Below, piece after piece: positions 1,056 to 62,950 of a stretch of 64,000 nt of DNA; position 1 is the stretch's first letter, and every line of letters starts with the position of its first letter. Source of the DNA: Mustelus asterias (lineage: Eukaryota). A program made the position numbers and the translations under genes. The notes below the pieces were generated by a model. That model was not told the DNA's origin. It was given only the letters and a program-made list of their open reading frames with translations, and searched no databases. The DNA is taken from contig NC_135805.1 in NCBI RefSeq assembly GCF_964213995.1, positions 100,378,001 to 100,442,000 of the forward strand, given 5' to 3'.

Positions 1056-3515
1056 ATTATCTCTGAAGAGTTACCAACCATATATTGTGGGCAGCACAGC
1101 CAAAATTCAGAGAACTATACAAAGGCCATCTACACTTCATAACCCAGGTTGGCCAACAAACTCCGTCCATCATAATAAAGGACCTCTCAATCTTCCTTTC
1201 AATTCTTAATGGTTGCGACATTCAAATGAGGAATACACACTGTAAAGAGGTGTGAGTCATGTGACATGGACTCGTTTGTCTTGCTATACTGCAAAGTCGC
1301 AGTCTGCCATTTTGCCATCTAATTAGCAGCATCATAAACAAGAGTTCTGACTCAGGTTGTTCATCTTTGCATGACTGTTTCATTGTGTGAAGTCAACACT
1401 GTCGGAAAAGTGAACTATCCAGCATCGGTTTTCAACTCACTGACCTCTGTGAAAGAATACATCATTAGACTTAGATGCTGGATTCTGGAACCTGTAACCT
1501 CCTGGCTTGCCAGTGTCTGATTTGGGGGGAACCCCAAAGATGCATGGGAAATCCCTCTTGGAAGTTCCCAGGTAAGGATTTGCATGGCAATTGCCCATAC
1601 ATGCTAACTTCCTCTGGGAAAATTGGCTGTGCTGGAAACTGTCTGAAAAAGTGATTTAAATCGCTAACTTAGTCTAATAGTTATTTAGAAAAAGTTAGAA
1701 GAATAAAACCTCTTTTAACTTTGTATAACTATTTTAAGGACCCAAACAGATCCCTGCACGGGACCCACACCCCTCCCGAACCTGACCTCACTCTTGTGAT
1801 GTCTAACCCCCAGTGTTTTACGGTTCTCTTCAGTAGGATTTTATAATCCAGAAATTGAGCAAATTTGCTCTTGGTCCAGTTTTGCTCAGTAAAAATGTAT
1901 ATTGGAAAATGAGGGTAGGGGTTAGCTTGTCCAATTTGCAGCAACCCCAGTTTCCCGGTTATTGAAATAAATGTCCAAAAACCAGGAGTGTCGTGAATTA
2001 TCAAGCAGTTGTTCTTGTAATGTCAGGTTTCTAATTTTAGTGGATGGCTGGAGCTGGTATGATATTGGTCATTATTGTCGTCGTAGTGAGGTGGTATTCA
2101 CTGAACACTCTGATTTATAACAGATTACAGAGCTACATATGAATTACTGCAAGAGACTATGTTTTACAAGAATACTTTTATAGAAATGATGCCTTTGAGA
2201 CAAAAAATGTGCTCTTACTGAGTGGTCAATGCACTCTTTCCAAATCAGGAAATTGAGATGATGTTTGCATGGTTTTCTTGTCTGTATTGAAAACCTTCCT
2301 CTCCTGTCTGATGATAATTAAACATAAAATACTTGTGTTTTATTAATGTCAAATAGCAGAACTGTTGAGTACTTTTTCCCCCGTTACTATAATGTTGATG
2401 ACTGTAACATTAAAGATGGTAATTTTTCAGTATTTTTGAGTGACATCATTAGTATATCACAGCTCACAGAATTATTCTACTCTTGCTGCATGTTAAAGAT
2501 GAATACAGTACTGCAAGGGAAGTGTGAAGCGGGACCTGAATTATGTAGCTGGAGTCAAACAGAACTCTCATTTACATGGTTGATATGTGGGAGGCATATT
2601 GAAATGCCGATTTATATGCGAATACGATACCAACAATGAATGGCTGAATATGCAAGCAAGTGGTGGTATGCATGTTTCATATCTATAAGTTGCTGTGTGC
2701 TGAGAGTCCTCAATAGACCAATTGATACGAAAATCTGTGATAGTAAATATTGGCTAAGAAAGTCTTCAACATACAAATAAAAAGACTGTTTCTCTTCGTT
2801 TCTCATCCCCACACCCCCTTCCCACACCCACACATACACGCATACAGTGTATTTTCCTCTAGCATGTTGTCATGGAAACTCATATTTCAGTAGGCAATTG
2901 AAGGTGGATTCTTAAATAATGCTCCTTGAGCTGCTTCTGTATTTTAGGAGCTATACTGTGGGTGTGTTGGGGGTGGGATGGGAGATGAGAGCATATGTGC
3001 ACACATCTTAATTCAGCTTTCTGTAAAGGAAATGTATAACCATTGTGGTCCTCAGCAACTTCCTCATGTCTCTGACTATATAAGGTAAAGAACAAAGTTG
3101 CTTGAATTTTCTCCAGAGTTAAACTACAGATCACATTATCGGTGGCTTAAAAAACTGTTATTTATTGGTCGTCTTTGTGTTTATTTTAATCAACTTGTTA
3201 AAAACAGTATACGTGATTTTTGAATATCAAGGTGAATAGTGAAGCCGCTGTAAATCAGAATGTGCCGCCATTGTACTTTGGCACTGCAAACCCTAGAAGA
3301 GAGAAAATGTGAGGGGGACATTGTGCTACTTTTATATTTTGCATTTCAAACGCATACAGACTTTTAAATTCTTCCTTCTCTTTCCCACCCCCATTCCGTG
3401 CCCTCAGCTCAGGAATCCAGAGGCCTGCAAAGTCCGTTTGACTGTTTTATGAGTTTACACAGTAAGAAGCCTCAACACCAGGTTAAAGTCCAACAGGATT
3501 ATTTGGTAGCAAAAA

Positions 3516-3552
3516 CCACTAGCTTTCGGAGCGCTGCTCCTTCATCAGGTGA
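3516..3552 (-). ncRNA. Minimal type I hammerhead ribozyme motif in PLE pLTR
   Basis: Minus strand reads TCAC-CTGATGA-AGGAGCAGCGCTCC-GAAA-GC-TA-GTGG. Confidence 0.65.
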
Positions 3553-4812
3553 GTAAGATTTCAGTTCACAAACAGGGCATATAAAGACACAAACTCAATT
3601 TACAAAATAATGGTTGGAATGCGAGCTTTTACAGGTAATCAAGTCTTAAAGGTACAGACAATGTGAGTGGAGAGAGGGTTAAGCACAGGCACTTCACTGT
3701 ACCGCAAACCCATGGATAACTTCACGATGCTCCACTTCTCCAGCTTCCACCCTAAACACGTTAAAGAAGCCATCCCCTATGGACATGCCCTCCATATACA
3801 CAGGATCTGCTCAGATGAGGAGGATCACAACAGACACCTCCAGACGCTGAAAGATGCCCTCATAAGAACAGGATATGGCGCTCGACTCATCGATGGACAG
3901 TTCCGACGCACCACCGCGAAAAACCGCACTGACCTCCTCAAAAGACAAACACAGGACACGGCGGACAGAGTACCCTTCGTCGTCCAGTTCTTCCCCAGAG
4001 CGGAGAAGCTACGACATCTTCTCTGAAGCTTTCAACATGTCATTGATGAAGATGAACATCTTGCCAAGGCTATCCCCACACCTCCACTTCTTGCCTTCAA
4101 ACAACCGGACAACCTCAAACAGACCATTGTCCGCAGCAAACTACCCAGCCTTCAGGAGAACAGTGACCACAACACCACACAACCCTGCCACAGCAACCTC
4201 TGCAAGACGTGCCGGTTCATCGACACAGATGCCATCATCTCGCGTGAGAACACCATCCACCAGTTACACGGTACATACTCTTGCAACTCGGCCAACGTTG
4301 TCTACCTGATACGCTGCAGGAAAGGATGTCCCAAGGCATGGTACATTGCGGAGACCATGCAGACGCTAGGACAACGGATGAATGAACACCGCTCGACAAT
4401 CACCAGGCAAGAGTGTTCTCTTCCTGTTGGGGAACACTTCAGCGGTCACGGGCATTCGGCCTCTGATCTTCGGGTAAGCGTTCTCCAAGGCGGCCTTCAC
4501 GACACATGACAACGCAGAGTTGCTGAGCAGAGACTGATAGCCAAGTTCCGCACACATGAGGACGGCCTCAACCGGGATCTTGGGTTCATGTCACACTATC
4601 TGTAACCCCCACGGCTTGTCTGGCTTGCAAAATCTCACTAACTGTCCTGGCTGGAGACAATACACATCTCTTTAACCTGTGCTTAACCCTCTCTCCACTC
4701 ACATTGTCTGTACCGTTGAGACTTGATTACCTGTAAAGACTCGCATTCCAACCATTATTTTGTAAATTGAGTTTGTGTCTTTATATGCCCTGTTTGTGAA
4801 CTGAAATCCCAC

Positions 4813-4849
4813 TCGCCTGATGAAGGAGCAGCGCTCCGAAAGCTAGTGG
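4813..4849 (+). ncRNA. Minimal type I hammerhead ribozyme motif in PLE pLTR
   Basis: TCGC-CTGATGA-A-GGAGC-AGC-GCTCC-GAAA-GC-TA-GTGG: core boxes, stem II and palindromic AGCT in place of stem III. Confidence 0.65.
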
Positions 4850-7020
4850 CTTTTGCTACCAAATAAACCTGTTGGTCTTTAACCTGGTGTTGTGAGACTT
4901 CTTACTGTGTTTACCCCAGTCTAGCGCCGACATCTCCACATCATTACTAGTTTACACCATGAACTGTAACTAAATCAAAGGATTCCTCAGTGTTTTTAAA
5001 TCTGGGTGAAATTGTTCTTGAGTTAGACTCCTTGACTATTCTTAAGATTGTTTGAGCCTGCCTTCTCCAGGAATGTGTCACTGCTTCCGTCTAATTTTTG
5101 GATCTGACCTGAGCAGCATTCTCACGTTGTGGCAATGAGATTGCATAAATTGGTAAGTTAACAAAACTGGGCTTGTTCGCATTTGAAAAGAGCTGTGACC
5201 AATGGAAGTTTGCAACATCATGAACGGATTGATGAAATTGATCTGGAACATTGTTCATAGAATGATACAACCCAGAAGGAAGCCATGTGACCCATTGTTC
5301 CTGTGCTGGTTGTTTAAAAAGGCTGTCTAATTCATCCTGCGTGCGTGCATGCAAGTGGGTGCCTGTTGTTATACTCAAAAAATGATTTGGTTGGAGAATT
5401 GTTTCACACTGGTCTTTGGGTTCAAGCTATTTTATTGTAAACCTCTACTTCAGAGCTGCCAGCCATGACACAATCAATGTTACAGGTTCTACTGGCAATT
5501 CTCTTAACGAGGTGATTGCCACACTCTGATTAGTAGTACATTGTCACCTACATTTGGGGAGTAGGTGTTTGTTGCGCTTACATGTTGGGTGTTGTGTGGA
5601 AATACACATTTATCCGTTATTTTGATTTAAACTTGCAAGTAAGCCTGATCGTGCCTGTGCATGTCACAGCACTCAAAAAGGTTAAAATACTCTTCAAATG
5701 TGAAACTTGTTGCAGTCAGCTGAGAGGTGAGAAAGGGAGTAAAATTATCCTGCACCTTTCCTGCTCGGTAACAATATTGGTTTAAACTTTACAGTGCAGC
5801 TCACACGGTTCCATGCTAGAATATATCTCTGAATTTGGTTGTTAACTTAAACTTGCAAAAGCTAGTTGCTGAATTGTTCAATTGGAACACGCTCTCCACA
5901 GTCACATGCCTTGTTCCATAAAAACATACTTATTATGGGTTGTGAGGGAGCATGTCATGGAGGTTTATAGCATGGAAACAGGCCCTTCGGCCCAACTTGT
6001 CCACGCTGCCTTTTTTTAAAAAACCTCTAAGCAAATCCCAGTTGCCCGCATTTGGCCCATATCCCTCTATACCCATCGTACTCATGTAACTATCTAAATG
6101 CTTTTTAAAAGACAAAATTGTACCCGCCTCTACAACTACCTCTGGCAGCTTGTTCCAGACATTCACCACCCTCTTTCTGAAAAAATTACCCCTCTGGACA
6201 CTTTTGTATCTCTCCCCTTTCACCTTAAACCTATGCCCTCTAGTTTTAGACTCCCCTAAAAAAGATATTGACTATCTAGCTGATCTGTGCCCCTCATTAT
6301 TTTATAGACCTCTATAAGATCACCCCTCAGCCTCCTACGCTCCAGAGAAAAAAAATCCCAGTCTACCCAGCCTCTCCTTATAACTCAAGCCATCAAGTCC
6401 CGGTAGCATCCTAGTAAATCTTTTCTGCACTCTTTTTAGTTTAATAATATCTTTTCTATAATAGGGTGACCAGAATTGCACACAGTATTCCAAGTGTGGC
6501 CTTACCAACGTCTTGTACAACTTCAACAAGACGTTCCAGCTCCTGTATTCAATGTTCTGACCGATGAAACCAAGCATGCCAAATGCCTTCTTCACCACTC
6601 TGTCCACCTGTGACTCCTCTTTCAAGGAGCTATGAACATGTACCCCTCGATCTCTTTGCCCTGTAACTCTCCCCAATGCCCTACCATTAACTGAGTAAGT
6701 CCTGCCCCGGTTCAATCTACCAAAATGCATCACCTCGCATTTGTCTAAATTAAACTCCATCTGCCATTCGTCAGTCCACTGGCCCAATTGATCAAGATCC
6801 TGTTGCAATTGGAGATAACTTTCTTCACTGTCCACTATGCCACCAATCTTAGTGTCATCTGCAAACTTACTAACCTTGCCTCCTATATTCTTATCCAAAT
6901 CATTAATATAAATGACAAATAACAGTGGACCCAACACTGATCCCTGAGGCACACCGCTGGTCACAGGCCTCCAGTTTGAAAAGCAACTCTTTACAACCAC
7001 CCTCTGGCTTCTGTCAAGAA

Positions 7021-7976
7021 ACACGGGACACGGTGGACAGAGTACCCTTTGTCGTCCAGTACTTCCCCGGAGCGGAGAAGCTACGGCATCTCCTCCGGAG
7101 CCTTCAACATGTCATTGATGAAGACGAACATCTCGCCAAGGCCATCCCCACACCCCCACTTCCTGCCTTCAAACAACCACGCAACCTCAAACAGACCATT
7201 GTCCGCAGCAAACTACCCAGCCTTCAGGAGAACAGTGACCATGACACCACACAACCCTGCCACAGCAACCTCTGCAAGACGTGCCGGATCATCGACACGG
7301 ATGCCATCATCTCACGTGAGAACACCATCTGCCAGGTACACGGTACATACTCTTGCAACTCGGCCAATGTTGTCTACCTGATACGCTGCAGGAAAGGATG
7401 TCCCGAGGCATGGTACATTGGGGAAACCATGCAGACGCTACGACAACGGATGAATGAACACCGCTCGACAATCACCAGGCAAGACTGTTCTCTTCCTGTG
7501 GGGGAGCACTTCAGCAGTCACGGGCATTCAGCCTTGGATCTTCAGGTAAGCGTTCTCCAAGGCGGCCTTCACGACACACGACAGCGCAGAGTCGCTGAGC
7601 AGAAACTGATAGCCAAGTTCCGCACACATGAGGACGGCCTAAACCGGGATGTTGGATTTATGTCACATTATCAGTAACCCCCACAGCTCGCCCCTGGTCT
7701 TGCATAATCTCACCAGCTGTTCTGTCTGGAGACAATACACATCTCTTTGACCTGTGTTTAATGTTCCCTCCAACCACATTATCTGTACCTTTTAAGACCT
7801 GGCTGGCTGTAGAGATTTGCATTCTAATTAGTATTCTGTAACTTGATTTCTGTGTCTGTGCACTGTTGGAGAACAGAGACCACTCCATCTGACGAAGGAG
7901 CAGCAAGCTCAGAAAGCTTATGGTATTTGCTACCAAATAAACCTGTTGGACTTTAACCTGGTGTTGTGAGACTTCT
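7021..7976 (+). mobile_element. Penelope-like element, 5'-truncated, open GIY-YIG endonuclease frame
   Basis: The frame is open to 7677 (PCHSNLCKTC, NVVYLIRCRKGCPEAWYIGET, RMNEHR, GLNRD). 12-bp TSD TTCTGTCAAGAA at 7009-7020 and 7977-7988. Confidence 0.93.
7885..7923 (+). ncRNA. Minimal hammerhead ribozyme motif, variant stem I
   Basis: CCAT-CTGACGA-AGGAGCAGCAAGCTCA-GAAA-GC-TT-ATGG. Confidence 0.55.
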
Positions 7977-9647
7977 TTCTGTCAAGAAGCCAGCTTTGTA
8001 TCCATTTAGATACCTCACCCTGGATCCTGTGAGATTTAACCTTATGCAACAACCTCAAACGCCTTGCTAAAGTCCATGTCGACAACATCAACTGCACTGC
8101 CCTCATCTATCTTCTTGGATATTCTGTCTGGGACAGAATAATCGAGGGTGTAGTTTTAGGAATGCCAAAAAGGTGTGATGAGCTATAGTGAAATGAGAAA
8201 ATAACTGTATAAAGCATGGCTCGGTCAGCAGTCAATTATAAATTGGTAAGTTAGCAAATACAGTTTTTTATAAATAGTGAAAATATTTCACAAAGTCTAT
8301 GGAACAATAATAGAATCATGTAAAATTAAATCATGTAAATCATGTAAAGCTAAAACTTATTTTTTGAAAATGTGTTGGTGATATCCTATTTAACGAATTA
8401 AATTGGACATATAATAAAACATCTGGACTGGTTGCTCACTAAACAATTGCCACCATCTTGAGGGCAACTGATTCACAAAGCATTTCATCTTAATCACGTT
8501 TTCCCTCCAACATCAAGCTCTACATAAACGACGAGTCAAGAAGCAGTTCTTGAAGGTTTTTACCAAAAACATACACAAAAGTGTACCTTTTATAGATTGT
8601 GTTTATGCTGCATATGCAATGTAATACTAGCTGTGATGTTCTCACCTTGATCTGGAATGCCGATGGATCATTTTGAATATTAGAGTTGTGCTTATAAAAA
8701 TCCAGGCATTTCTGCGTCTAACTCAGACTGTAAACATGACTGCATATCTAGTATTTTGTCCCCAGCTGGACACTATTAGTATAAAATTTAATAGTAAAAT
8801 GCTATTCCCAATACATGAGACATCCATTGAGCAGAAATGCCCCTGTTTCTTGTGATATTAGCACACTCTTCGGAATGATGTGATTCCATTAATAATGGAC
8901 TGGACACTGTCATCCCGCTGTTGCTGATTGAATGAAAGTGATCTGTTTATATTGTTCATTTTTAATTGAATAGATCCTTGGATAATTCTGTTCACCTTCA
9001 TGTACTACAGATCAATGTCAACAATGTAGAAAATGATTGCTCATTGGAGTGGGGTTTTGGGTTCTGAAGTAAAACAGGCCAAAAGAGAAGATGCAATGGC
9101 CAGAGTGAGATTGAGAGTTTTTTTATTGCTTTGCTGCTGAGTTGATCATTGTAATTCAGGAACAACTGCATGTATAAAATCCTTTTAAATGTTGTATGCA
9201 AGAACAACTTGGATGTCTGAAAAATATCTGCATAAGTCACTAATGTACAAAATGTTATACTGATCTGTACAAGATAGCTATAAAAATAGTAATATGTAGC
9301 AATCAATGCAATCCTCAGATATTTCTAATCATTATTGTAAGTGCTGTATCCTAAATAATTGGTGGTGGGGAGAAGGATAAAATCATTCCACCCCCTACCC
9401 CCCAGTATGTCTTTTTCTCTGAATTAACTGGTTGCTCACATAGAGGAGGAATTGATAATTGTCCGCTCAAATATGAATTGTATGCAGTGTGTATAATGTG
9501 GCATGAATATACCTTTCAAAGGATGCATCATTGTTGTCTGATAAGTGATGAACCTACTCACTAACCTAAGTGTGGTGCTGAACCCTAGAGAATCCTGTCA
9601 TTTGGAATGAGTTGAATTCACCAACTGGGACAGTATAGTTCATTTGT

Positions 9648-10145
9648 GCTCCTCGAATTCTGGCTTCTTGCACATCCCCAATTTTAATTGCTGCATAATT
9701 GGAACCTGTGCCTTCAGTAGTCTAAACCCCAGGGTGAAACCATGATCACCTTCTCGGCCTTTTGGCTGAATCAAGCGTCAGCTCAAGCCCAAGATCAGGT
9801 GCAGTGCCTTTTCTTGTCTCTCTTAAGGGACCATGAATTGGATTCAATTTGAATTGGGTTTTTGGAGCAAGCAAGGAGATAGATTAAAGTCTTGACTGAT
9901 CCACTCTGCGCATTAACTTTGTAACTTTAAGAATGGAGTAAAAATTAAACCCCAAGCTCTGGAATTCCCTTCCCCCTCTCTCTTTTTTTCTCCCTTTCAC
10001 TTAAAACACCATCTTGTTGACCAGGCTTTTGGTCATCTGACCTAATGTCTCTTTTTGTGGCTCATTGTCATACTTTGTTCTATAATGTGAAGCACCATGG
10101 GATGTTTCAATACATTATAAGTGCTACAGAAATATAAGTTGTTGA
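9648..10145 (+). mobile_element. L2-type LINE 3' tail, interrupted by a U2-derived insertion
   Basis: Homologous to 58435-58705 (TCTGGC..CTTG..CATCCC..TTTTAATTG through CTA..AAATA..AGTTGT). Resembles vertebrate L2 3' ends. Confidence 0.65.
9732..9945 (+). pseudogene. U2 snRNA-derived retroposed element (rearranged pseudogene or SINEU-like)
   Basis: ATCACCTTCTCGGCCTTTTGGCT..ATCAAG matches the U2 5' end. There is a second AAGATCAGGTGCAGT, an Sm-site region GGTTTTTGGAGCA, and GGAGAT..TCCACTCTGCGCAT resembling U2 stem III/IV. TSD TAAACCCCA at 9723-9731 and 9946-9954. Confidence 0.8.
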
Positions 10146-12016
10146 TGCATTGGTAATCCTGAATTAGGATTGGAATTACCAGTGATACTCTTCGCGATGA
10201 AATAGCCTCCTTGCGCTCCCTCCTGAGACACTCGCACAACAGATACCTACTGGGGCTAGCTCTGAATGTTGCTGTTGCCAAAATTCCAGTTTAGGTAATG
10301 CCTACAGGAGAAATATAGATTTTTAAAAATCTTTAAAAATCATTATGAATTTAAAGTGATTTGAACAAACAAAACTTTCTAAATTTTAAAGTTTTTTATT
10401 TTGGCAGTTTTTCTTTTGAAAAATCCTTTCGTGGAGCAGGACAGTAAGACTTTGTTTTTTCACATGTCTTATGCAACAGATGTGGAACTGTTTCTTTTGA
10501 GAGCAATACTAAAAGTAAAGTGAGCCAGGAAGTGGTGCAACCAAGCTCCATTCATGTTTTGATCTGAGGTATGCTGCGTTCTAATTTACTAAGCCAATAG
10601 TCAGCCTAAAAGTTTTGCATCACTTGAGTTACATTACAGTGCTGTTGTGGTCTCAAGAAATGCAGTATGGCTACTGTAACATGCAATATCTATTCACTGG
10701 CTCAATCAATCCATTGCTTCAATTTTGTTTTTATTTTATTGCATGAAAGTTGTTTCATATTTGACCTGGAGCCAAAATCAAGTTTATTTGCAGCCTGTTC
10801 AAATATCAACAGCAATCTGTTTTGATCCCTTTCACATCACATGGAGCTCTGCCTTATCTGCTCTGCTAAAACCACCTGAGTAATAATGAAGGCACCATTA
10901 CACCACATGTAATGTGGTGTTTAGTAGTTATATATTGCTGTTGATCATGAGAGATGAACAGTTCCTACTTTAAATTGAAAACTGTTTTGTGCTAACAAGA
11001 TGGTTTCCAGGCTAACAGGCCCCTGCTGAATTCCTTTTCTTCATAATTCAGTATATTGCCATCCTTCTTACTCCTATTGTTTGCATAACAGACTTTAGCT
11101 CAATCTACATGTTCAAGCTATCTGGATACATCATAATGACACTTCCCACATTCTGCCCCCATGCTTTCTCAAATTTTGTACTGTTTGTGATATCTCTAAT
11201 TCTGCTCTCGTTTCCATGATTCACCTTCCATTACATTATTTTTAGTGTTAAGATGGAATTACACTGAATGAATGCTTCCACTCTTCAAGCTTGAAGCAGA
11301 CTTATTTAAGTACACAGTGTCCAAATCGCACTGCAGCCTTTGCCCACTGGACTTCAGTGTGCTAATGACTTCCCGGCTGTACCCTGCAGCTGTGGTGTCT
11401 TGGGCAGAAATATGCTGTCCATTGGTCAAATCTTATTTCCTGCTGGTTTCTTGGTTTTGCTGTTACCTCCACTATGCTGCTGCATTTAACTGAGACTATT
11501 CTCTGCTGAACTACTTCTATTTCATTACCTGGTTTACTTCTGGTGTGTCCTCTATTACTACTACATTAAGTTCAAGGGTCGTTAATGGCAAACGGTTTAG
11601 CTGTTTATTGCCAGATCTGAGTGGGCTGTATAAAGCAATATTGTATCTTGTTCTCCTCTGCCAAAATTGCTCGCTATTGCAAGATCATCCTGGAATGCTA
11701 AGATAATCCCTGGCTTCTCTTCAATGCAAATTGTCTTCTTCAGCCTCTCTCCTACATCCTTACCTCATAAGAGACATGAGGAGCTCATTACCTTTTTGTT
11801 ACTTGCCTTTAAGACATCTATATTGATCCTGTGGATTTATCTTTCGCATACGCTCATCACCAACAGGATAGAGATCAATTACAGCAATGTAAACCACTTT
11901 GCCACGTCCTCAAGTCTTGAACACTGCAGAACCCTCAGTGTTGCTTCTTCAGAGATCTGCTAATTCAATTCAGACCAGGAATCACACTTGCAACCTTTTG
12001 GTCCATGTGCCTCAGT

Positions 12017-13630
12017 CATAGAGTGATAGAGGTTTTACAGCATGGAAATAGGCCCTTCGGCCCAACTTGTCCATGCTGCCCAATTTTGACCATGAAGCTA
12101 GTCCCATTTGCCTGCGTTTGGCCCATATCCCTCTATACCCATCTTACCCATGTAACTGTCTAAATGCTTTTTAAAAAACAAAATTGTACTCGCCTCCACT
12201 ACTATCTTAGAATCTTAGAAACCCTACAGCACAGAAAGAGGCCATTCGGCCCATCGAGTCTGCACCGACCACAGTCCCACCCAGGCCCTACCCCCATATC
12301 CCTAGATATTTACCCACTAATCCCTCTAACCTACGCATCCCAGGACACTAAGGGCAATTTTTTAGCATGGCCAATCAACCTAACCCACACATCTTTGGAC
12401 TGTGGGAGGAAACCGGAGCACCCGGAGGAAACCCACGCTGACACAAGGAGAATGTGCAAACTCCACACAGACAGTGACCCAAGCCGAGAATCGAACCCAG
12501 GTCCCTGGAGCTGTGAAGCAGCAGTGCTAACCACTGTGCTACCGTGCCACACTCTGCCAGCTCGTTCCAGACAGTCATCACCCTCTATTAAAAAATTGCC
12601 CCTCTGGACCCTTTTGTATCTCTCCCCTCTCACCTTAAACCTATGCCCTCTAGTTTCAGACTCCCCTACTTTTGGGAAAGGATATTGACTATCTACCTTA
12701 TCTATGCCCCTCATTATTTTACAGACCTCTATAAGATCACCCCTAAGCCTCCTATGCTCCAGGGAAAGAAGTCCCAATCTATCCAGCCTCTCCTTGTAAC
12801 TCAAGCCATCAAGTCCTGGTAGCGTCCCAAAAAATCTTTTCTGTGCTCTTTCTAGTTTAATAATATCCTTTCTATAATAGGGTGACCAGAATTGTACACA
12901 GTATTCCAAGTGTGGCTTGACCAATGTCTTGTACAACTTCAACAAGATGCCGCAACTCCTGTATTCAATGTTCTGACCAATGAAACCAAGCATGCCAAAT
13001 GCTGCCTTCACCACCCTGTCCACCTGTGACTCCACTTTCGAGGAGCTATGAACATGAACCCTTAGATCTCTCTGTTCTATATAACTCCCCAACGCCCTAC
13101 CATTAACTGAGTAAGTCGTGCCCCAGTTCGATCTACCAAAATGTATTCACTTCGAATTTATCTAAATTAAACTCCATCTGCCACTCGTCAGCCCACTGGC
13201 CCAATTGATCAAGATCCCGTTGCAATCCTAGATAGCCGCCTTCACTGTCCACTATGCCACCAATCTTGGTGTCATCTGCAAACTTACTAACCATGCCTCC
13301 TAAATTCTCATCCAAATCATTAATATAAATGACAAATAACAGTGGACCCAGCACCGATCCCTGAGGCACACGTTGGCCACAGGCCTCCAGTTTGAAAAAC
13401 AACTCTCTAGAACCACCCTGTCGTCAAGCCAGTTTTGTATCCAATTGGTAACCTCACTGTGGATCCCGTGAGATTTAACCTTGTGCAACAACCTACCATG
13501 AGGTACACTGTCAAAGGCCTTGCTAAAGTCCATGTAGACGCCTTCATCTACTTTTGTGGTTACCCCTTCAAAAAAACGTAGTGAGACATGATTTTCCACT
13601 CAACGAAGCCATGGCTGACTGCCCCAATTA
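12017..13630 (-). mobile_element. CR1 LINE 3' fragment with nested SINE
   Basis: RT motifs in ORFs 13300-13599 (YMDFSKAFD), 13133-13402 (PQGSVLGP, FADD) and 12331-13092. Same subfamily as 5955-8117. Confidence 0.92.
12207..12550 (-). mobile_element. tRNA-derived V-SINE (HE1-like)
   Basis: A/B-box head (GGTAGCACAGTGG..GGTTCGATTC), V-domain body GTGGAGTTTGCACATTCTCC..GGTTTCCTCC, CR1-like tail with TTCTAAGA repeats. Confidence 0.9.
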
Positions 13631-13775
13631 GTCAGCCAATAAGTTTGTTGAATGATGCAAATAATTGTGTTATTGTGTTATTTTGGCATTTATGAATTCT
13701 GTTGGGTAGTTGTGAAAATACAAATCCAGGAAAAGGCCTTACCAGTAATCTGTTTCATTGTCATGTGCTTTACAG

Positions 13776-13834
13776 GTGCTGATATTAATACCTGCAAACA
13801 GCCCTTTGGCTCCTTCCGGCAAGAAATTGTTCAT
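13776..13834 (+). other. Candidate 59-nt internal exon of an unidentified gene
   Basis: Acceptor tgtgctttacag|G and donor CAT|gtaagt in unique sequence. Two frames are open (xADINTCKQPFGSFRQEIVH or VLILIPANSPLAPSGKKLF). No homolog recognised. Confidence 0.35.
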
Positions 13835-15611
13835 GTAAGTTTATAATCCTCTTTTTTTTGTTCGCCTTGCTCTTTTTATAGCATCCAATTTAACTGTACC
13901 AAAGCAATGCATAGTTTTTATCCTTTTACTGCACAATCAGACAGGCCAATTCGAACTTTTGGTGCCTAAAATTGAGAGATCCTACTTTTACTCTTGTTTG
14001 CTTTTGACAATGTGTGATAAATTTAGACTTAGAACAGCATGTTTTCGGTTTGTAGGTGATAGTTATCCCACTTTAGCTGCCAAGTATTGTTACAGTTTGG
14101 GCTTCCTCCCAACACTCTTTGTTCATGGTTACAGCAACATGGCAGCAGGCCCACACCTCCTGTGAATTGGAACTTGTATCCCTCAAGCAGAGTGAATGGA
14201 TTAGCACACACCAAGATTGACAATTCCAATAGACAGAAAAGCAGCATGCTGACGAATCAAGCAGCTATGAATATTGTTGACTATAAAGGATAATTTTACA
14301 CAGAATCATTGCAGGGTGATATAGTATTTCAGTTTCTTGGTGAATACTTGCTGGCTTGTGTAATGAATAAGTGATTTGCTGAGTATCTGGAATGGAGAGC
14401 TGGCTCAGGTTCTAGCTGGGGAGATAACTTTACATTGCAAGTCTGAGGCAATGTGGCTCCTGGGCTAGTTTTGGTCACAAAAGGTTTGGAGAAGAATTTT
14501 CCAGACATTTTTCCTTAATTACGAATAGGATTACATTGGATTACAAAGGAGAGTTGGCACTGAGACAGGCAAACCCAAGCAGGAAATGTCAGATGCCACT
14601 GGCCTAGCTTTTTACTTTTCTTTTGGTCATCATCCAAAAGATTGCATGGCTCTGGATAGCTAGAGAGCATCACAACTGTGTGGGGCAGACCTTTACTCGA
14701 GCTTCTTTAGATTCCTGCATTAGATCTTTAATGGAACTGATGTGGACATTTCAGTTCCACTTTGGTCTTGGATTCCAGTTTGGCTAATTGACTTAAAAGG
14801 AGTCACAAAAGCTAACAGTAAACAGACCTGTTCTAGATGGCTTCTGATGTTTCTTGATCCAAAGTACACTCATCAAAATAGGCTTATTCTATCTCAACAG
14901 CCTGATGATGCATATCAGTTATTTTTATGATTCTGAGTTGAGATTGGGACAGAGATCAGCCAAGTAGATTACTACATTTGTGATTATAGCCTCTGGGAAT
15001 TTTATGTCCCAACAGTTAACTTCCAAACTCCCAAGTCTTTTCTGAAGCATTGTATACCATCCAATGTCATCAGAGAGACATTCTGAACAGGACACCTCCA
15101 TTTTCTAATTTGCAGTAACAAACTATCGGGGGAGAATTAAACTGCTGAGCCCCTGGAAGGTGTGAATGATAGTTATGAATAACATCAAGATGTTTGACAA
15201 AGGAAATGCACATGGAAAGATGAATAATGGGGGTAGATGGGCGAGTCAGTTAATGTTGAAAGTTCATTGACAGTGCTGCAGAGAGAAGGTCATGAAGAGA
15301 AGGGATGAATACAGACAAATATTGTTAGGAACTGACTTAAAAGTTAAATTTTCAACATCCGAGCAGGAAGTAATTTTGTTTTTATTAATTCAAGGGATGC
15401 TGTGGGCATTGCTGGCTAGACTAGCATCTAGTGCCTTGGACACCATCCTGAGGTACTTCTGCAGTGATGCCCTGGAACTGAGACCTCCAACAACCACAAA
15501 ATCTTCCTTTGTGCTATGTATGACTAACCAACGAAACGTTTTCCTCTTGATTCCCATTGACTTCAGCTTTTTCTAGGGCTCTTTGATACCACACTCAGTC
15601 AAATGTGGCCT

Positions 15612-17729
15612 TAGAATAAGGGAGATGGCTGAGTCGGTTTAGAGCAAAAGGCGTGCACCGTTCAAAATGATGAGCATAGCTGGAACTTAGGAGGTGGGGG
15701 ATGTATTAAGGAACAATTGATAAGGCTGCAGGATAGGCATGTGCCTGTAAAAAGGAAGGATAGGAAAGGTAGGATTCGAGAGCCATGGATAACCAGGGAA
15801 ATTGAGGATCTGATTAAAATGAAAAGGGAGGCGTACGTTAAGTCCAGGCAACTGAAAACAGATGGAGCTCTGGAGGAATACAGAGAGAGTAGGAAAGAAC
15901 TCAAACGGGGAGTTAGAAGGGCAAAAAGAGGTCACGAGATGTTCTTGGCAGGCAGGATTAAGGAGAATCCGAAGGCATTCTATTCATACGTTAGGAACAA
16001 AAGAGTTGTCAGGGAGAAAATTGGACCTCTCCGGGACAAAGGAGGGGAACTATGCTTAGAACCCAAGGGAATAGGGGAGATCCTAAATGAATACTTTGCA
16101 TCGGTATTCACGAAGGAGAGGGACGTGTTAACCGGGAGTGTCTCGGAGGGAGGTGTTGACCCGTTAGAGAAAATCTCCATTACAAGGGAGGAAGTGTTAG
16201 GTTTTTTAGGGAACATTAAAACTGACAAAGCCCCAGGGCCTGATGGCATCTATCCAAGACTGCTCAGGGAGACGAGAGAGGAAATTGCTGGGCCTCTGAC
16301 GGAAATCTTTGTCACTTCTTTGGACACAGGTGAGGTCTCTGAGGATTGGAGGATAGCGAATGTGGTCCCGTTGTTTAAGAAGGGTAGCAGGGATAACCCG
16401 GGAAATTATAGGCAGGTGAGCTTGACGTCCGCGGTAGGGAAGTTGTTGGAGAAGATTCTTAGAGATAGGATGTATGTGCATTTAGAACGGAACAATCTCA
16501 TTAGTGACAGACAGCATGGTTTTGTAAGAGGGAGGTCATGCCGTACAAATTTGGTGGAGTTTTTTGAGGAAGTGACAAAAACGGTTGACGAAGGGCGGGC
16601 CATGGATGTCGTCTATATGAATTTCAGTAAGGCATTTGACAAAGTCCCACATGGCAGGTTGGTTAAGAAGGTTAAGGCTCATAGGATACAAGGAGAAGTG
16701 GCTAGATGGGTGGAGAACTGGCTTGGCCATAGGAGACAGAGGGTAGCGGTCGAAGGGTCTTTTTCCGGCTGGAGGTCTGTGACCAGTGGTGTTCCGCGGG
16801 GCTCCATACTGGGACCTCTGCTATTTGTGATATATATAATTGATTTGGAAGAAGGTGTAACTGGTGTTATCAGCAAGTTTGTGGATAACACGAAGATGGC
16901 TGGACTTGCGGATAGCGATGAGCATTGTCGGGCAATACAGCAGGATATAGATAGGCTGGAAAATTGGGCGGAGAGGTGGCAGATGGAATTTAATCCAGAT
17001 AAATGCGAAGTGATGCATTTTGGAAGAAATAATGTAGGGAGGAGTTATACAATACATGGCAGAGCCATCAAGAGTATAGAAACACAGAGGGACCAAGGTG
17101 TGCAAGTCCACAAACCCTTGAAGGTGGCAACACAGGTGGAGAAGGTGGTGAAGAAGGCATATGGTATGCTTGCCTTTATAGGACGGGGTATAGAGTATAA
17201 AAGCTGGAGTCTGATGATGCAGCTGTATAGAATGCTGGTTAGGCCTCATTTGGAGTACTGCGTCCAGTTCTGGCGTTAGAGTACAGGATGTTGCCTGGTA
17301 TGGAGGGTCTTAGCTATGAGAAGAGATTGGGTAAACTGGGGTTGTTCTCCCTGGAAAAACGGAGAATGAGGGGATATCTAATAGAGGTGTACAAGATTAT
17401 GAAGGGGATAGATAGGGTGAATGGTGGGAAGCTTTTTCCCAGATCAGAAGTGACGATCGCGAGGGGTCATGAGCTCAAGGTGAGAGGGGCGAAGTATAAC
17501 TCGGATATCAGAGGGATGTTTGTTACACAGAGGGTGGTGAGGGCCTGGAATGCGCTGCCAAGTTGGGTGGTGGAGGCAGGCACGCTGACATCGTTTAAGA
17601 CTTACCTGGATAGTCACATGAGCAGCCTGGGAATGGAGGGATACAAACGATTGGTCTAGTTGGACCAAGGAGCGGCACAGGCTTAGAGGGCCAAAGGGCC
17701 TGTTTTCCTGTGCTGTACTGTTCTTTGTA
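15612..17729 (+). mobile_element. CR1 LINE, 5'-truncated, long RT frame
   Basis: ORF 15717-17279 (KAPGPDGIYP, QHGF, YMNFSKAFD, GVPRGSILGP) is followed by a short deletion, the C-terminal ORF 17288-17659 and a CR1 3' UTR. Catalytic motifs are degraded (FVDN). Confidence 0.93.
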
Positions 17730-17919
17730 TAATGACATGACGAGTGGCAACAATAGACAAGGCTGACCTCTCTGGATAGCCGGAAGTTAGACAACTCTCA
17801 CTGCGTATATTGAGGTGGAATCTAGAGGAAGTGAGAGAAATTAACAGATCGTTCAGGAGGGAAGCAACTTTAGCCTGATGAGGCTGAAAATTGTTCAGGC
17901 TGCTGTTCGAGGAAAAAGT

Positions 17920-19163
17920 ACAGTAAGAAGTCTCACAACACCAGGTTAAAGTCCAACAGGTTTATTTGGAATCACGAGCTTTCAGAGGGTTGCTCCTTCA
18001 TCAGTTGAAGGAGAGGAATGTTCACAAACACGGTGTTGTGGGAAATTACCACCGGAGTCAGACTGGAGGTTCGACAACACAGTTTTATTTCGGACACGAA
18101 GCTTCGGGGAGAAAGCACTGGTACTCCGCAGTACTTGGCAGCTACCTTCTCAATAATACAATCGCAGTTGATCATTTTTATATCTTTTAGACAATGGATA
18201 GTCCGGACATTAGCCGTTTAACACATCGTTATAGTTGAGTAGACAGATCATGGTGATCGATAGTTAACACATCGTTATAATCAGACAGGTACAGACATGG
18301 GCGTTTAACATCGCATTGTTCATTGAGTGGATACATTTCCTCTATCAATGACTGGTTTCGATCTATACATACAGTGATTGGTTTTGCTGTATTTATGTTC
18401 CCATCTGTGACTGATCTTATTATCAGACCCTATTGTCCTGGGTCTGTCCTTATCTTTAAAATGCCTCAAGCTCTGACTAGCTTCCTGCAGTATTTTGGTC
18501 ATTGCATGTTTTAACTTTTTAAGTGACTGTCTGTGCTGCATGTTTTAACTTAAAGTAGCTGTCTGTGCTAAAAGCCAGTGCCTACTTAATGTCTCTTCCC
18601 AGGTAACCATTTTGTGTGCCAGGCAACCATTTTGTGTGTCAGGTAACCATTTTATAATTTTCCCCACTTCAGCGGTATATATAGGCAAAGACACAATTGC
18701 AAGATAATTACAGATTGGAAGAATGGTTGGAATGCGAGTCTCCGACAAAGAGTCATCGAAACGTCAGCTCCTTTCTCTCCTTGCAGATGCTGCCAGACCT
18801 GCTGAGATTTTCCAGCATTTTCTCTTTAGGTTAAGGAGGTGTGAAGTGTCTGACTGGCTTGAGACAATTCATTCCTCTTTAACCTGTGATCATCCCTCTC
18901 TCCACTCGCACTGTCTGTACCTGCAAAGACTTGATTTTCTGTAAAGACTTGCATTTCAACCATTCTTCACACTCCAATCTATAATTACCTTGCAATTGTG
19001 TCTTTGCCTACATATGCTGTGTTTGTGAACTAACCTCTCCACTCACCTGATAAAGGAGCAGCGCTCCGAAAGCTTGTGATTCCAAATAAACCTGTTGGAC
19101 TTTAACCTGGTATGGTGAGACTTACTGTGCCCTCTCCTGTCCAACACCGGCATTTCCACATCA
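17920..19163. mobile_element. Non-coding PLE derivative made of two inverted pLTRs, with nested insertions
   Basis: The left arm (17920-18033 plus 18672-18741) is the reverse complement of the right arm (~18940-19130). Hammerhead motifs at 17972-18008 (-) and 19043-19079 (+). Confidence 0.85.
18034..18671 (-). mobile_element. Solo LTR (ERV-like)
   Basis: TG...CA ends with inverted termini TGTTGTGGGAAATTA / TAATTTTCCCCACTTCA. 4-bp TSD ACGG/GCGG. Minus-strand AATAAA near 18087-18092. 20-bp tandem repeats at 18600-18653. It interrupts the pLTR cleanly. Confidence 0.75.
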
Positions 19164-19464
19164 AGGAGGAAATGAGGAGTCTAGAGTCCAGTTCTGATGA
19201 AAGTTCCATCAACCTGAAATAGATGACTCCAGTTCCCATTCCAAAAAGTGCTGCCTGACTTGCTGTGTCCAGAATTTTCTGCTTTTTAGTTTAGAGACTG
19301 TCATGGTGAGAGAAGAAAATATAGATTGACCGACAGTACATCAATAGCAAAAAAAGAGACCATTAGAGATGGAAAATTTGAAATTGTGAAAATAGTATAA
19401 GAATTAACTGATAATTACCTGATGTAGATGGATAAAGAATAGAAAAGAGGGTGAGAATGAATGG

Positions 19465-29507: not shown

Positions 29508-29665
29508 TCAAAATACTGCTGATGCTGGAATAGGGAACAAAAACAGAAAATGCTGGAAAATCTTAGCAGGTCTGACACCTCTGATGAAGGGTCTTCCTGA
29601 CTTGAAACGTTGGAACTATTCTCATTCCACAGATTCAGTCAGACCTGCTGAGATTTTCCCTTATT
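29508..29665. mobile_element. Short palindromic non-autonomous element with hammerhead-like core
   Basis: Arms GGAAAATCTTAGCAGGTCTGAC and GTCAGACCTGCTGAGATTTTCC flank CTGATGA-AGGGTC-TTCCT-GACTT-GAAA-CGTT. Related pieces at ~18742-18828, 19190-19290, 19825-19890 and 55870-55962. Confidence 0.7.
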
Positions 29666-34255: not shown

Positions 34256-35569
34256 CATTTTGGTGAGTTCGGCGGGGGGGGGGGGGGGAGACTATGTTTG
34301 TGGAGTAATTTTGTTTGTCGGGGTAATTTTCCAACATTGTGCTCCTGGTGAAAAGCCTCACCTGTAAAGCGTGCATTGTAAATTTGAGCAAGCACCGCTT
34401 ACAATTTTCCAAACGTTTTAAAATTGAACCTGAACTGTAAACTAGGCTATGTGTATTATGTATTTATTATGCTGAAGTATTAGAAACTTCTTACCATGGC
34501 AAAAACATTCTCAAATATTTAGAGAGAGCTTTGGAAGGAATACATGCATGGAAACTGAAACCCCTCTGGAGAGATTGTGAGCACTTTGCCAAATGTATCA
34601 AAGCCTGTGAAGAATTCTACATTGGTTCTTGATTATTTTTGTTGTCTGATGTGTTATCTTAATTTTTAGCTGTACAATTGTGGACTGAATTAAACTTGAC
34701 TAGCAGCAAGTGGCCTTGAAAAAAAAGTGTCACCGCAAGTGCCATTGAGGCAAACAAGATTTAAATACTTTAATGTTTAATTGTATTGTTGGTTGGAAGA
34801 GATTTTTTTTCTTCTTTCAGCACTATATATTTAGAAAATATGTCAAGGTTTTTATTGCTGGTGGCTTGAGGTCCACCTGTGAGGTAGAAACTTAACAGAA
34901 TGGTGCATCTACTTGTTACAACCTATATTTCATTTTGTACCTTCAAAAAGTTCAGGTCAGTGTGCTGATGTAGTAAAACCAGTGGAGCACATCTGTCATT
35001 GATCATGTCTTATTTGAGTGAGCCAGTAAAATCTTGTACGGCTTTGTAGTAACAGTCATCTGATTATGGAGACCACATGTGAAGTAATCCTCAAAGAACA
35101 CATTGAGCTTCATGCAGAGAATGCCTTCCAGTGAATTGGACAATAATCTGACCTGAGTTGTGAAGGACAAGTATGGGTGAAGAGGAAAATATGATTTTTT
35201 TTCCAAGTATGGTATAGCGCAAATTATTGCATATAACAATAATAGCTTCTTATGTTGTCAGAGAATGTGTTTTGAATTTATTTGGTTACCCAAGGTGCAC
35301 ATCAACTGTCCTGAGGAAAACCAAAGGTTCACTATACAATGCATAACATAGTGTTCTCAGTTGGACAACAATCAAGGCCACAGAATTGCAATTGGAATTA
35401 AATCCTTAAATTAGCAATAAAGATCCTAGGATCCAATGTAATAAAACAGAATTTGGAGCAATAATCTGTAGTCTCTAAATTTGTTGTTCTAGCTGAAAAG
35501 AATTCATATGTACTTATAAGTCTAAACCGCATCAATGTTAACGGTAAATCCTAGTCTGGCAATATATCT

Positions 35570-35632
35570 TTAACCTGGTGTTGTTAAACTTCTTACTGTG
35601 TTTACCCCAGTCCAACGCCGGCATCTCCACAT
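35570..35632 (+). mobile_element. 63-bp PLE 3' terminus
   Basis: Matches 4878-4942. 10-bp TSD CAATATATCT at 35560-35569 and 35633-35642. Confidence 0.85.
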
Positions 35633-36227
35633 CAATATATCTGATCACATGCAATCATTTCAAGCCTGCAGGCATTATTACTTGGAGTATCAAAATATTC
35701 AATAGGAGGAACAGTGAAAAGTGTGCAATTTCCTCTCTTGCAGCACCAATTTAAAAGTAGTAATACAAGCACATAACTTGTTAATGTGCTGAATTTTTGT
35801 GTTTATTGCATGCCTTAATAACATTCTGTAATTGCCCAGTTCACTAAAACGTAGCAATTTTCTGATTTGTGCAAATGTTTATAATATTTGAGTGAAAATC
35901 ATTTGCTTTATCATTTGAAGAAAAACAAAATGCATTTTAAACTCATCGTCATATTTGCAAATGTTTCTTGGGACTCAAATCCAAGTTGAGTACATGTTTC
36001 CCCTATTGTGTGTGATGAGTAATTTTTTTTTGCTCTGGCCCAGCATCTTTATAAAAAGGAGTAATGTTCCTTGGCATCATTGACCCAAACTACCTACTGA
36101 CAAACTGATCTGAGTTCTTCTGATTTTTTTTTAAGCAATGGATATATAAAAGTGCCTTTATTTAATAGCACTATGGGACTGTGTGCATCAGTTCAAGGCC
36201 AGCCTTCTTACTGTATCTGAGAAAAAG

Positions 36228-62439: not shown

Positions 62440-62950
62440 GGGTTAGAAACGAAAGCAGGCTATTCAGCCCATTGTGCCTGCTCCGCCACTCCATATAATC
62501 ATGATGTAGCGATGCCAGTGTTGGACTGGGATGGGCACAGTAAGAAGTCCCACAACACCAGGTTGAAGTCCAACAGATTTATTTTGAATCACAAGCTTTT
62601 GGAGCACTGCTCCTGATGAAGGAGCGCTCCTAATTAAAAATAAACCTGTTGGACTTTAATCTGGTGTTGTGAGACTTCTTACTGTGCCCATATAATCATG
62701 TCTGATCGTCCACTTCAATGCTTTTTTTCCCCCACACTATCCCAATATCTTTGATATTGGTGTTTAAAAATCTGTCAATCTTTTAACATGCTCAATGACT
62801 GTATTTCCATAGCCCTCTGGGATAGAGAATGCCAAAGATTCACAACATTCTAACTTTAAAAAGAAAATTCACCTCATCCTGGTCTAAGTGATTTGCCCCT
62901 TATTTTGAAATTGTATCCTCGGACTCTAGACTCCCCTACCAGAGGAAACA
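62440..62950 (-). mobile_element. CR1 3' fragment hosting a mini-PLE
   Basis: Similar to the 3' end of 26337-27205 (GCCTGCTCCGCCA..ATCATG..CTGATC). Confidence 0.75.
62504..62687. mobile_element. 184-bp palindromic PLE pLTR derivative
   Basis: Two inverted pLTR ends are fused at the hammerhead motif. 13-bp TSD CCATATAATCATG at 62491-62503 and 62688-62700. Confidence 0.88.

What the first reader, a model, noticed from the sequence alone, without database searches (positions are those of the whole stretch)
3461..19163. Covarying minimal hammerhead ribozymes in Penelope-like terminal repeats
Seen: five pLTR copies (3516-3552 -, 4813-4849 +, 7885-7923 +, 17972-18008 -, 19043-19079 +) carry stemI-CTGANGA-stemII(GGAGC/GCTCC)-GAAA-GC-TH-stemI'. 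Stem I covaries between subfamilies: TCAC/GTGA at 19043 and CCAT/ATGG at 7885. Stem III is reduced to the palindrome AGCT. The 19043 copy has a core G-to-A change. Established: PLEs carry minimal type I hammerheads thought to cleave as dimers from tandem pLTRs. Inference: this shark PLE lineage used self-cleavage to define its RNA ends, and selection kept the fold while the neighbouring 3' UTR diverged.
Basis: partly seen in the sequence, partly recalled or inferred. Interest (0 to 1): 0.7.

Follow-up and report, generated by a model that had tools for sequence, protein, structure and literature searches.

The report
Penelope hammerheads with fossil RNA ends
These five motifs are copies of the tiny "hammerhead" self-cutting RNA shape already known from Penelope-like jumping genes, present over 137,000 times in this genome, and many shortened genomic copies begin exactly at the predicted cut site or at a likely capped RNA start just before the motif, a likely fossil record of the ribozyme cutting the front of the element's RNA in the animal.

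Summary
All five motifs are present at the stated coordinates, in truncated copies of a GIY-YIG Penelope-like retrotransposon (Neptune-type linker). Minimal type I hammerheads in PLE pLTRs are published, so the kind is known. The family has 137,572 intact-core matches genome-wide (reversed control 0). Selection acted on source lineages: 0 changes at 14 core sites on internal branches against 118 at 175 UTR sites (p=0.005), while N7 and H17 vary freely. Inserted copies decay neutrally; the G8A at 19052 is private. Two-sided stem covariation is real but rests on few events, and the youngest subfamily breaks the fourth stem I pair. The cut does not set the 3' ends of insertions: 0 of 175 end there; they end about 60-70 or 100 nt downstream. 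It does leave a 5' trace: 1,594 copies of the youngest subfamily start exactly at the predicted cut, against 161 at a position 4 nt upstream. Another 5,937 matches begin 6 nt before the core, 83 of 100 with an extra G, 29 nt behind a TATA-like box. The scan has noted this motif and both end signals before, in this genome and others; I re-tested them. No cleavage assay or RNA-end data were available.

The parts
3461..4948 (+). Insertion E1: 5'-truncated PLE with inverted pLTR arm, ORF 3' part and direct pLTR with long tail; candidate target-site duplication AGTTTACAC at 3452-3460 and 4949-4957
   Evidence: (89% to a tandem array unit)
3461..3689 (-). Inverted pLTR arm of E1, ending at the short 3' end
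3516..3552 (-). Minimal hammerhead, intact core, stem I UCAC/GUGG; predicted cut after H17=A at 3520
3690..4608 (+). ORF remnant: end of RT, CX4CXXC linker and GIY-YIG endonuclease, with two in-frame stops
   Evidence: frame translation; match to the 775-aa ORF
4782..4787 (+). TATA-like box, 29 nt before the inferred transcription start at A4811
   Evidence: start inferred
4813..4849 (+). Minimal hammerhead, intact core, stem I UCGC/GUGG; predicted cut after H17=A at 4845
4856..4948 (+). Conserved downstream tail with a predicted hairpin; holds the two 3' end sites (about 4908 and 4945); in full-length copies the ORF ATG follows the long end
7021..7976 (+). Insertion E2: truncated PLE (GIY-YIG part plus pLTR, short 3' end) inserted into a LINE RT gene; candidate target-site duplication TTCTGTCAAGAA
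   Evidence: (PF01541 E=5e-4, below Pfam cut-off; RVT_1 on the minus strand)
7885..7923 (+). Minimal hammerhead of the CCAU/AUGG subfamily, 5-nt loop II, private C11.1-to-A mismatch; predicted cut after H17=U at 7919
17920..19163 (+). Insertion E3: old pLTR-only inverted insertion without ORF; inverted arm 17920-18033 plus 18677-18741, direct arm 18831-19163
17972..18008 (-). Decayed hammerhead: intact core, but mismatches in stem I and II; not predicted to fold
18034..18671 (.). Unrelated ~640-bp repeat with TG...CA ends (solo-LTR-like) that splits the inverted arm of E3
19043..19079 (+). Minimal hammerhead with UCAC/GUGA stem I and private G8-to-A core change at 19052, likely inactive
   Evidence: its inverted partner keeps G8
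35567..35637 (+).
62502..62686 (.).

Best explanation
The motifs are minimal type I hammerheads in the pLTR of a very abundant Penelope-like retrotransposon, likely of the Neptune clade; the motif likely forms the capped first 35-37 nt of the element's RNA and likely cuts a minority of RNAs in vivo, whereas the 3' ends of genomic copies lie downstream of the cut. Shown: motif, element anatomy, copy number, core conservation among source lineages, neutral decay after insertion, two 3' end sites, and two sharp 5' start peaks. Inferred: a TATA/Inr-like promoter in the upstream pLTR starts transcription 6 nt before C3; the ORF ATG follows about 100 nt after the cut. Reverse transcription would start inside the tail. 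When it starts at the 5' tail it runs off the RNA front and leaves stubs that begin at the cap (extra G) or at the cut (no G bias). Long ORF-bearing copies need a template whose 3' motif was not cut (or a circle). Cleavage would remove the cap and cut tandem read-through transcripts; it probably needs a partner motif (AGCU helix III) or the element's protein. The five window copies are dead.
For: Anatomy. Not chance. Selection: core 0 internal / 9 terminal changes at 14 sites vs UTR 118 / 145 at 175 sites, Fisher p=0.005; N7 and H17 together 7 internal changes; H17 is U, A or C in all but one of 80 insertions; 92.7% of cells paired, 3 of 9 pairs with two-sided change. Neutral decay. 3' ends: 0 of 175 within 3 nt of the cut, peaks at about +60-70 and +96-105; 46 of 60 inverted pairs have one long and one short end, none two long. 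Cut trace: 1,594 junction matches at +1 vs 422 at -2 and 161 at -4; 30 of 30 fetched loci (29 insertions) lack the upstream motif; the inverted partner passes the cut in 2 of 27 vs 28 of 46 for off-peak starts (p=5e-6). Cap trace: 5,937 matches, G in 83 of the first 100 vs 38 of 100 at the cut (both counted by eye); 40 of 40 fetched G loci are junctions, 16 scored solo; TATA-like box 29 nt upstream.
Against: No cleavage assay and no raw RNA reads. The unbiased 1.58-Mb sample shows no excess at the cut (2 of 80 starts, 3.0 expected), so cut-derived copies are at most a few percent. The cut peak was tested in one subfamily against two control positions only, with ±1 ambiguity from microhomology. 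Pair-keeping on internal vs terminal branches does not differ (9/12 vs 22/35, p=0.5), and 74 of 500 shuffles reach the count of two-sided pairs. The youngest subfamily has a U-U mismatch at stem I pair 4. In 70-nt context stem I is predicted in only 2 of 6 cases. Some extra Gs could be templated by the partner arm, and no neighbouring-position control was run for the cap peak. In Anolis, no RNA-seq reads ended at the cut and ribozyme mutants inserted normally in vitro (PMC11167929).
Confidence: 0.7

Rival explanations
1. One reading: cleavage at tandem pLTRs defines both ends of the transposition RNA; a cut-to-cut monomer, probably circularised, is the main template.
For: A tandem array with four motifs and a 2,991-bp period exists; the cut leaves a 5' trace; the model is proposed in PMC4209133. 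Internal priming on a circle would also put 3' ends in the tail.
Against: No 3' end at the cut (0 of 175). The cap-type peak is larger than the cut peak (not the same subfamily pool). Array units differ: units 1 and 2 share a 17-bp gap absent from unit 3, which one circular template would not give. No circular RNA data.
Confidence: 0.15
2. The motif is conserved as a protein-binding or promoter element rather than as a catalyst; the +1 peak comes from RT pausing, fold-back or microhomology at the GUGUGG/hairpin sequence.
For: The tail is conserved too (8 internal changes at 45 sites). The motif lies just downstream of the inferred start. Stem I often loses to other folds. Most +1 copies are inverted junctions. 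Earlier, unchecked scan notes report PLE families in other genomes that spread with altered cores.
Against: Variation is confined to N7, H17 (not G), loop II and stems, the pattern that hammerhead chemistry allows (rule recalled). A stall at stem I would be expected near +4, not +1 (inference). Partner arms respect the same boundary.
Confidence: 0.1
3. The ribozyme is a passenger that cuts but does not help the element, or limits it by decapping its mRNA.
For: PMC8557442 notes that HHR-less Naiads proliferate well and that HHRs may parasitise PLEs; cut RNAs visibly yield short stubs.
Against: Purifying selection on the core across all source lineages is hard to explain without a benefit in cis.
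Confidence: 0.05

Closest known systems
Minimal hammerheads (min-HHR) in pLTRs of metazoan PLEs, Cervera and De la Pena 2014 (PMC4209133; parts 1-2 of 4 read; supplements not seen)
   Same: Type I topology, 4-5 bp helix I, extra base between 9 and 10.1, G10.1-C11.1 pair, palindromic 15.2-16.2, location in pLTRs, many single or opposite-strand copies, several covarying families per genome.
   Different: Helix II is 5-6 bp. Copy number is 137,572 by a different pattern, against about 4,000 (coelacanth) and 9,000 (Xenopus). No shark is named in the parts read. That paper has no in vivo evidence; here 5' ends pile up at the predicted cut.
PAc Poseidon element of Anolis carolinensis, Frangieh et al. 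2024 (PMC11167929; parts 1-2 of 4 read)
   Same: Hammerhead in the pLTR; two 3' end sites (the tail) downstream of the cut, assigned there to internal RT initiation; uncut RNA as main template.
   Different: In PAc the ORF starts inside stem II; here the ATG is about 100 nt after the cut. PAc RNA-seq showed no ends at the cut. The protein here has the CX2-5CxxC linker that Poseidon lacks.
Neptune-clade EN+ PLEs (PMC8557442; passages read)
   Same: RT with DKG motif, C-terminal GIY-YIG with CCHH, CX4CXXC linker, partial tandems, inverted truncated copy at the 5' end, 30-40-bp tail at one end only.
   Different: No phylogeny against named elements was run, so Nematis is not excluded. Flanks looked like ordinary sequence with 7-13-bp duplications rather than microsatellites (few cases).
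Axolotl non-LTR retrozymes (PMC7229834, passages; bioRxiv 10.64898/2026.07.22.740005, part 1 of 5 and passages)
   Same: Type I hammerheads in very high number (126,247) that cleave better as dimers; proposed PLE origin; retrozymes and PLEs reported in the one chondrichthyan sampled by the preprint.
   Different: Those are short tandem non-coding repeats with canonical motifs and circular RNAs; these are dispersed ends of an autonomous element.
Drosophila virilis Penelope promoter (PMC2377424; passages read)
   Same: Transcription starts in the pLTR, a short way upstream of the hammerhead region.
   Different: That promoter is internal and TATA-less with an intron; here a TATA-like box lies 29 nt upstream and no intron was seen.

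Membership tests
Minimal type I hammerhead (min-HHR) | Core CUGANGA...GAAA...UH | tested here: met
   4 of 5 window copies intact, 19043 has G8A; core nearly invariant in 80 insertions
Minimal type I hammerhead (min-HHR) | Helix I closes both ends; helix II present | tested here: met
   Predicted in 4 of 5 isolated motifs; 90% and 95% of cells paired in 61 variants
Minimal type I hammerhead (min-HHR) | Helix III reduced to a palindrome; extra base 9.1; G10.1-C11.1 | tested here: met
   AGCT in 37 of 37 descriptor hits; A9.1 in 80 of 80, G-C or G-U at II.1 in all but two cells
Minimal type I hammerhead (min-HHR) | Covariation in helices | tested here: inconclusive
   Two-sided changes at I.1, II.3, II.4 but few independent events; 74 of 500 shuffles reach the pair count; R-scape not available
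Minimal type I hammerhead (min-HHR) | Self-cleavage at H17, as dimer or with protein | not testable with these tools
   Only indirect: 5' junction peak at +1; co-folding gives an intermolecular AGCU helix in 4 of 6 dimers but with stem II swapped
Canonical hammerhead families in Rfam 15 | Match to an Rfam hammerhead model | tested here: not met
   No hammerhead family among 8 matches at E<=5; the minimal form lacks helix III
EN+ Penelope-like element | Single ORF with RT and C-terminal GIY-YIG | tested here: met
   775-aa ORF with RVT_1 E=1.8e-7; GIY-YIG E=5e-4 in the window copy, below cut-off, and not scored in the 775-aa ORF; frame open over 500 codons from the tail ATG in 3 of 20 loci
EN+ Penelope-like element | pLTRs from tandems, inverted truncated copies, tail at one end | tested here: met
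   Tandem array; 60 inverted pairs, 46 long/short
Neptune clade | CX2-5CxxC linker plus CCHH endonuclease | tested here: met
   CHSNLCKTC and CCHH-type residues read from the ORF; definition from PMC8557442; shared with Nematis
Neptune clade | RT phylogeny groups with named Neptune elements | not tested
   No reference set was at hand
Non-LTR retrozyme | Short non-coding tandem units each with a hammerhead | tested here: not met
   Window copies are dispersed or inverted ends of ORF-bearing elements; the E3 filler is an unrelated repeat

The most novel reading that the evidence does not exclude
The genome holds a fossil 5'-end map of the element's RNA: thousands of stubs start at a capped site 6 nt before the hammerhead core and over a thousand start at the ribozyme cut. 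This would be direct genomic evidence that a metazoan PLE minimal hammerhead cleaves in the germ line, and that it works as a self-decapping switch at the front of the mRNA, about 100 nt before the start codon, rather than as a 3'-end former.
Probability: 0.55. Interest if true: 0.7.

Novelty: new member of a known kind. Interest (0 to 1): 0.5.

Why it matters
Whether the weak minimal hammerheads of animal PLEs cut in vivo, and why, is stated as open in the papers read (PMC4209133, PMC8557442, PMC11167929). A family with over 137,000 intact copies gives enough insertion junctions to read RNA ends from DNA, and gives exact sites for 5'-OH and cap mapping. The motif itself is of a published kind. 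Searches 'hammerhead ribozyme + shark + Penelope' (1 irrelevant hit), 'Penelope + Neptune + shark + genome + transposable' (1 irrelevant) and 'Penelope-like + ribozyme cleavage site + truncated + insertions' (0) found no report of a shark PLE hammerhead or of a cleavage footprint in the held library; Repbase, subscription papers and supplements were not seen.

Tried and rejected
Rfam scan: no hammerhead hit. Second independent origin of the U-A pair in the old lineage: rejected, counts fit independent decay (C-G 6,308, C-A 1,684, U-G 391, U-A 120). E3 as a non-autonomous PLE or retrozyme with its own internal sequence: rejected, the filler occurs alone in 4 of 5 other loci and beside a separate PLE stub in the fifth. 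G8A as a C3/G8 covariant: rejected, all 5 G8A cases are singletons with C3, 4 at a CpG. My first reading, that no ends lie at the cut, came from an underpowered sample and was overturned by genome-wide counts. A subfamily-aware recount of starts in the sample (third part) was unreliable because deletion-type references shift positions; not used. RNA evidence: no RNA holder listed; contigs of four coded runs from four organisms carry the motif and tail but cannot show ends or expression. RNAalifold over the wider region recovered stem II and the tail hairpin but not stem I, which was misaligned by indels. Lunse et al. 2016 was not held and is known only through the review PMC6765202 (passages). 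PMC6155905 mentions 'shark' only for the shape of the motif. No protein homologue search, structure or complex prediction was run.
Full report
Observation. The five motifs are present as described. They belong to three insertions: E1 (3461-4948, an inverted and a direct pLTR around an ORF remnant), E2 (7021-7976, inside a LINE RT gene) and E3 (17920-19163, pLTR arms only). Stem II is GGAGC/GCTCC in three of them; the 7885 and 17972 copies carry private mismatches. Four of five isolated motifs fold into stems I and II, with weak z-scores. Rfam has no hammerhead match at E<=5. A descriptor search of 800 kb of the genome (80 stretches, 10 of them near the window) gave 37 hits, all of this family and all with AGCT, against 0-1 per simulation. 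A tight intact-core pattern has 137,572 matches in the 3.68-Gb genome, reversed control 0.

The element. E1 and E2 encode the end of an RT, a CX4CXXC linker and a GIY-YIG domain. A pattern across the tail and start codon has 521 matches and led to a tandem array with four motifs, period 2,991 bp, and a 775-aa open frame with RVT_1. In 3 of 20 such loci the frame is open for over 500 codons from an ATG directly behind the long tail, each preceded by a whole pLTR and an upstream ORF end. The linker and CCHH motif fit Neptune or Nematis as defined in PMC8557442 (passages); no phylogeny was run. The filler in E3 (18034-18671) is a separate TG...CA repeat that split the inverted arm. The host taxon was not tested.

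Selection. From 158 sampled stretches (1.58 Mb) plus the window I took 184 pLTR segments; 107 spanned the motif and parsed, 3 did not, in 80 insertions. Core positions are nearly invariant; departures are scattered and mostly at CpGs. N7 takes all four bases; H17 is U, A or C, with one G where a base is deleted. On a tree of the 44 insertions with near-full pLTRs, built from flanks only, 14 core sites show 0 internal and 9 terminal changes, the far UTR 118 and 145 over 175 sites, the tail 8 and 22 over 45, N7 and H17 7 and 7 (Fisher p=0.005). The tree is fitted to the UTR columns, which may inflate that contrast. Two-sided changes: I.1 C-G to U-A in one clade (5 insertions, support 100), II.3 A-U/G-U/G-C, II.4 G-C to A-U in 2 insertions; I.4 moves among U-G, C-G and U-A but is U-U in the youngest subfamily and U-C in another. 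Over 61 distinct motifs 92.7% of cells pair, but 74 of 500 shuffles reach the number of covarying pairs, and pair-keeping on internal and terminal branches does not differ. In the old H17=C lineage the I.1 pair varies independently over 8,503 copies (odds ratio 1.15), so inserted copies decay neutrally. E1 against E2: ORF 92.6%, UTR 75.7%, motif 76.9%, tail 96.2%.

3' ends. None of 175 sampled segments ends within 3 nt of the cut; ends cluster about 60-70 and 96-105 nt downstream. Of 60 inverted pairs, 46 have one long and one short end, 3 two short, none two long, 11 unclassified. This is the known PLE tail, assigned to internal RT initiation in PMC11167929 (parts 1-2 read). Templates of motif-bearing copies were therefore uncut at their 3' motif, or circular.

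5' ends. The sample showed 20 of 80 starts between -40 and -32 but no excess at the cut (2 of 80). Earlier scan notes (1,136 findings in at least 37 genomes hold the search words) pointed to a cap signal and a cut signal, which I tested genome-wide. Cut: in the youngest subfamily 1,594 matches start at +1 behind two non-templated letters, against 422 at -2 and 161 at -4. Both controls are inflated: at least one -2 match is the partner arm of a +1 junction, and several -4 loci are local duplications. All 30 fetched +1 loci (the first 30 of 1,594; 29 insertions) lack the upstream motif, and the inverted partner passes the cut in 2 of 27, against 28 of 46 for off-peak starts. Cap: 5,937 matches start at the A six bases before C3; the letter before is G in 83 of the first 100, against 38 of 100 at the cut (both counted by eye, one third expected). 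All 40 fetched G loci (40 of the first 41) are junctions; 16 scored solo, about 3 of which carry a short inverted tail piece. Most full pLTRs have a TATA-like box 29 nt upstream of that A; it is weak or absent in the CCAU subfamily. That an extra G marks reverse transcription of a cap, and the TATA/Inr spacing, are recalled, not taken from a call.

Mechanism. Most likely the pLTR promoter starts a capped RNA whose first 35-37 nt are the hammerhead up to its cut; the tail and then the ORF follow. RT primes in a tail: the 3' tail gives long copies, the 5' tail gives stubs that run off the cap or the cut end. Cleavage is likely occasional, since cut-type stubs are a few percent at most, stem I competes with other folds, and published min-HHRs are slow and need a partner or protein (PMC4209133; PMC11167929; PMC6765202 passages). 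It would decap the mRNA and split tandem transcripts. Sequence patterns are shown; promoter use, cleavage and its purpose are inferred.

Comparison and verdict. The motif meets the sequence and structure features of the min-HHR of Cervera and De la Pena; catalysis is untested. The count is of the order of the 126,247 axolotl hammerheads (PMC7229834 passages). The finding is a new member of a known kind. Its interest lies in the 5'-end footprint, which bears on an open question, was not found in the paper searches and has been noted before by unchecked agents of this scan. Supplements of the cited papers were not seen and may list cartilaginous fish. Interest 0.5.

Noticed in passing
window 29581-29611 (+); decayed pieces at 18742-18830 and 19194-19290: A second, older hammerhead-like repeat family with an ACGT palindrome (CUGAUGA-A-GGGUC...GACUU-GAAACGU-U); 51 segments in the 1.58-Mb sample, 10 of 56 segments with a parsable core. 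Its parent element was not traced.
   Followed up: partly
window 18034-18671: About 640-bp repeat with TG...CA ends and a near 4-bp duplication, at least 40 copies at 90-93%; looks like a solo LTR.
   Followed up: partly
G000:C4:69471730-69481042 (L191, L192): Young tandem array of three PLE units and four hammerheads; all units share an early frameshift, units 1 and 2 share a 17-bp gap.
   Followed up: partly
window 4606-4810 vs 7678-7882: UTR/promoter is 76% identical between E1 and E2 while the ORF is 93% and the tail 96%: fast promoter turnover or exchange between subfamilies.
   Followed up: no
window 4844-4859: The 3' strand of stem I can form a competing GUGGC-UUUU-GCUAC hairpin in younger subfamilies; a possible off switch, untested.
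   Followed up: partly
window 4876-4926: Conserved tail hairpin (GUUGGACU/AGUCCAAC); the short 3' end lies in its loop and the long end behind it.
   Followed up: partly
window 9746-9946 (+): Weak match to U2 snRNA (E=0.01, below gathering score), probably a pseudogene.
   Followed up: no
window 6338-7003 (-), 15633-17279 (+), 30927-32914 (+), 49634-50740 (-): LINE fragments with RVT_1 and AP-endonuclease matches.
   Followed up: no
L192:1700-2200 against runs X1, X2, X5, X6: Contigs from four coded organisms carry the same motif and tail, so the family is shared among related species.
   Followed up: partly
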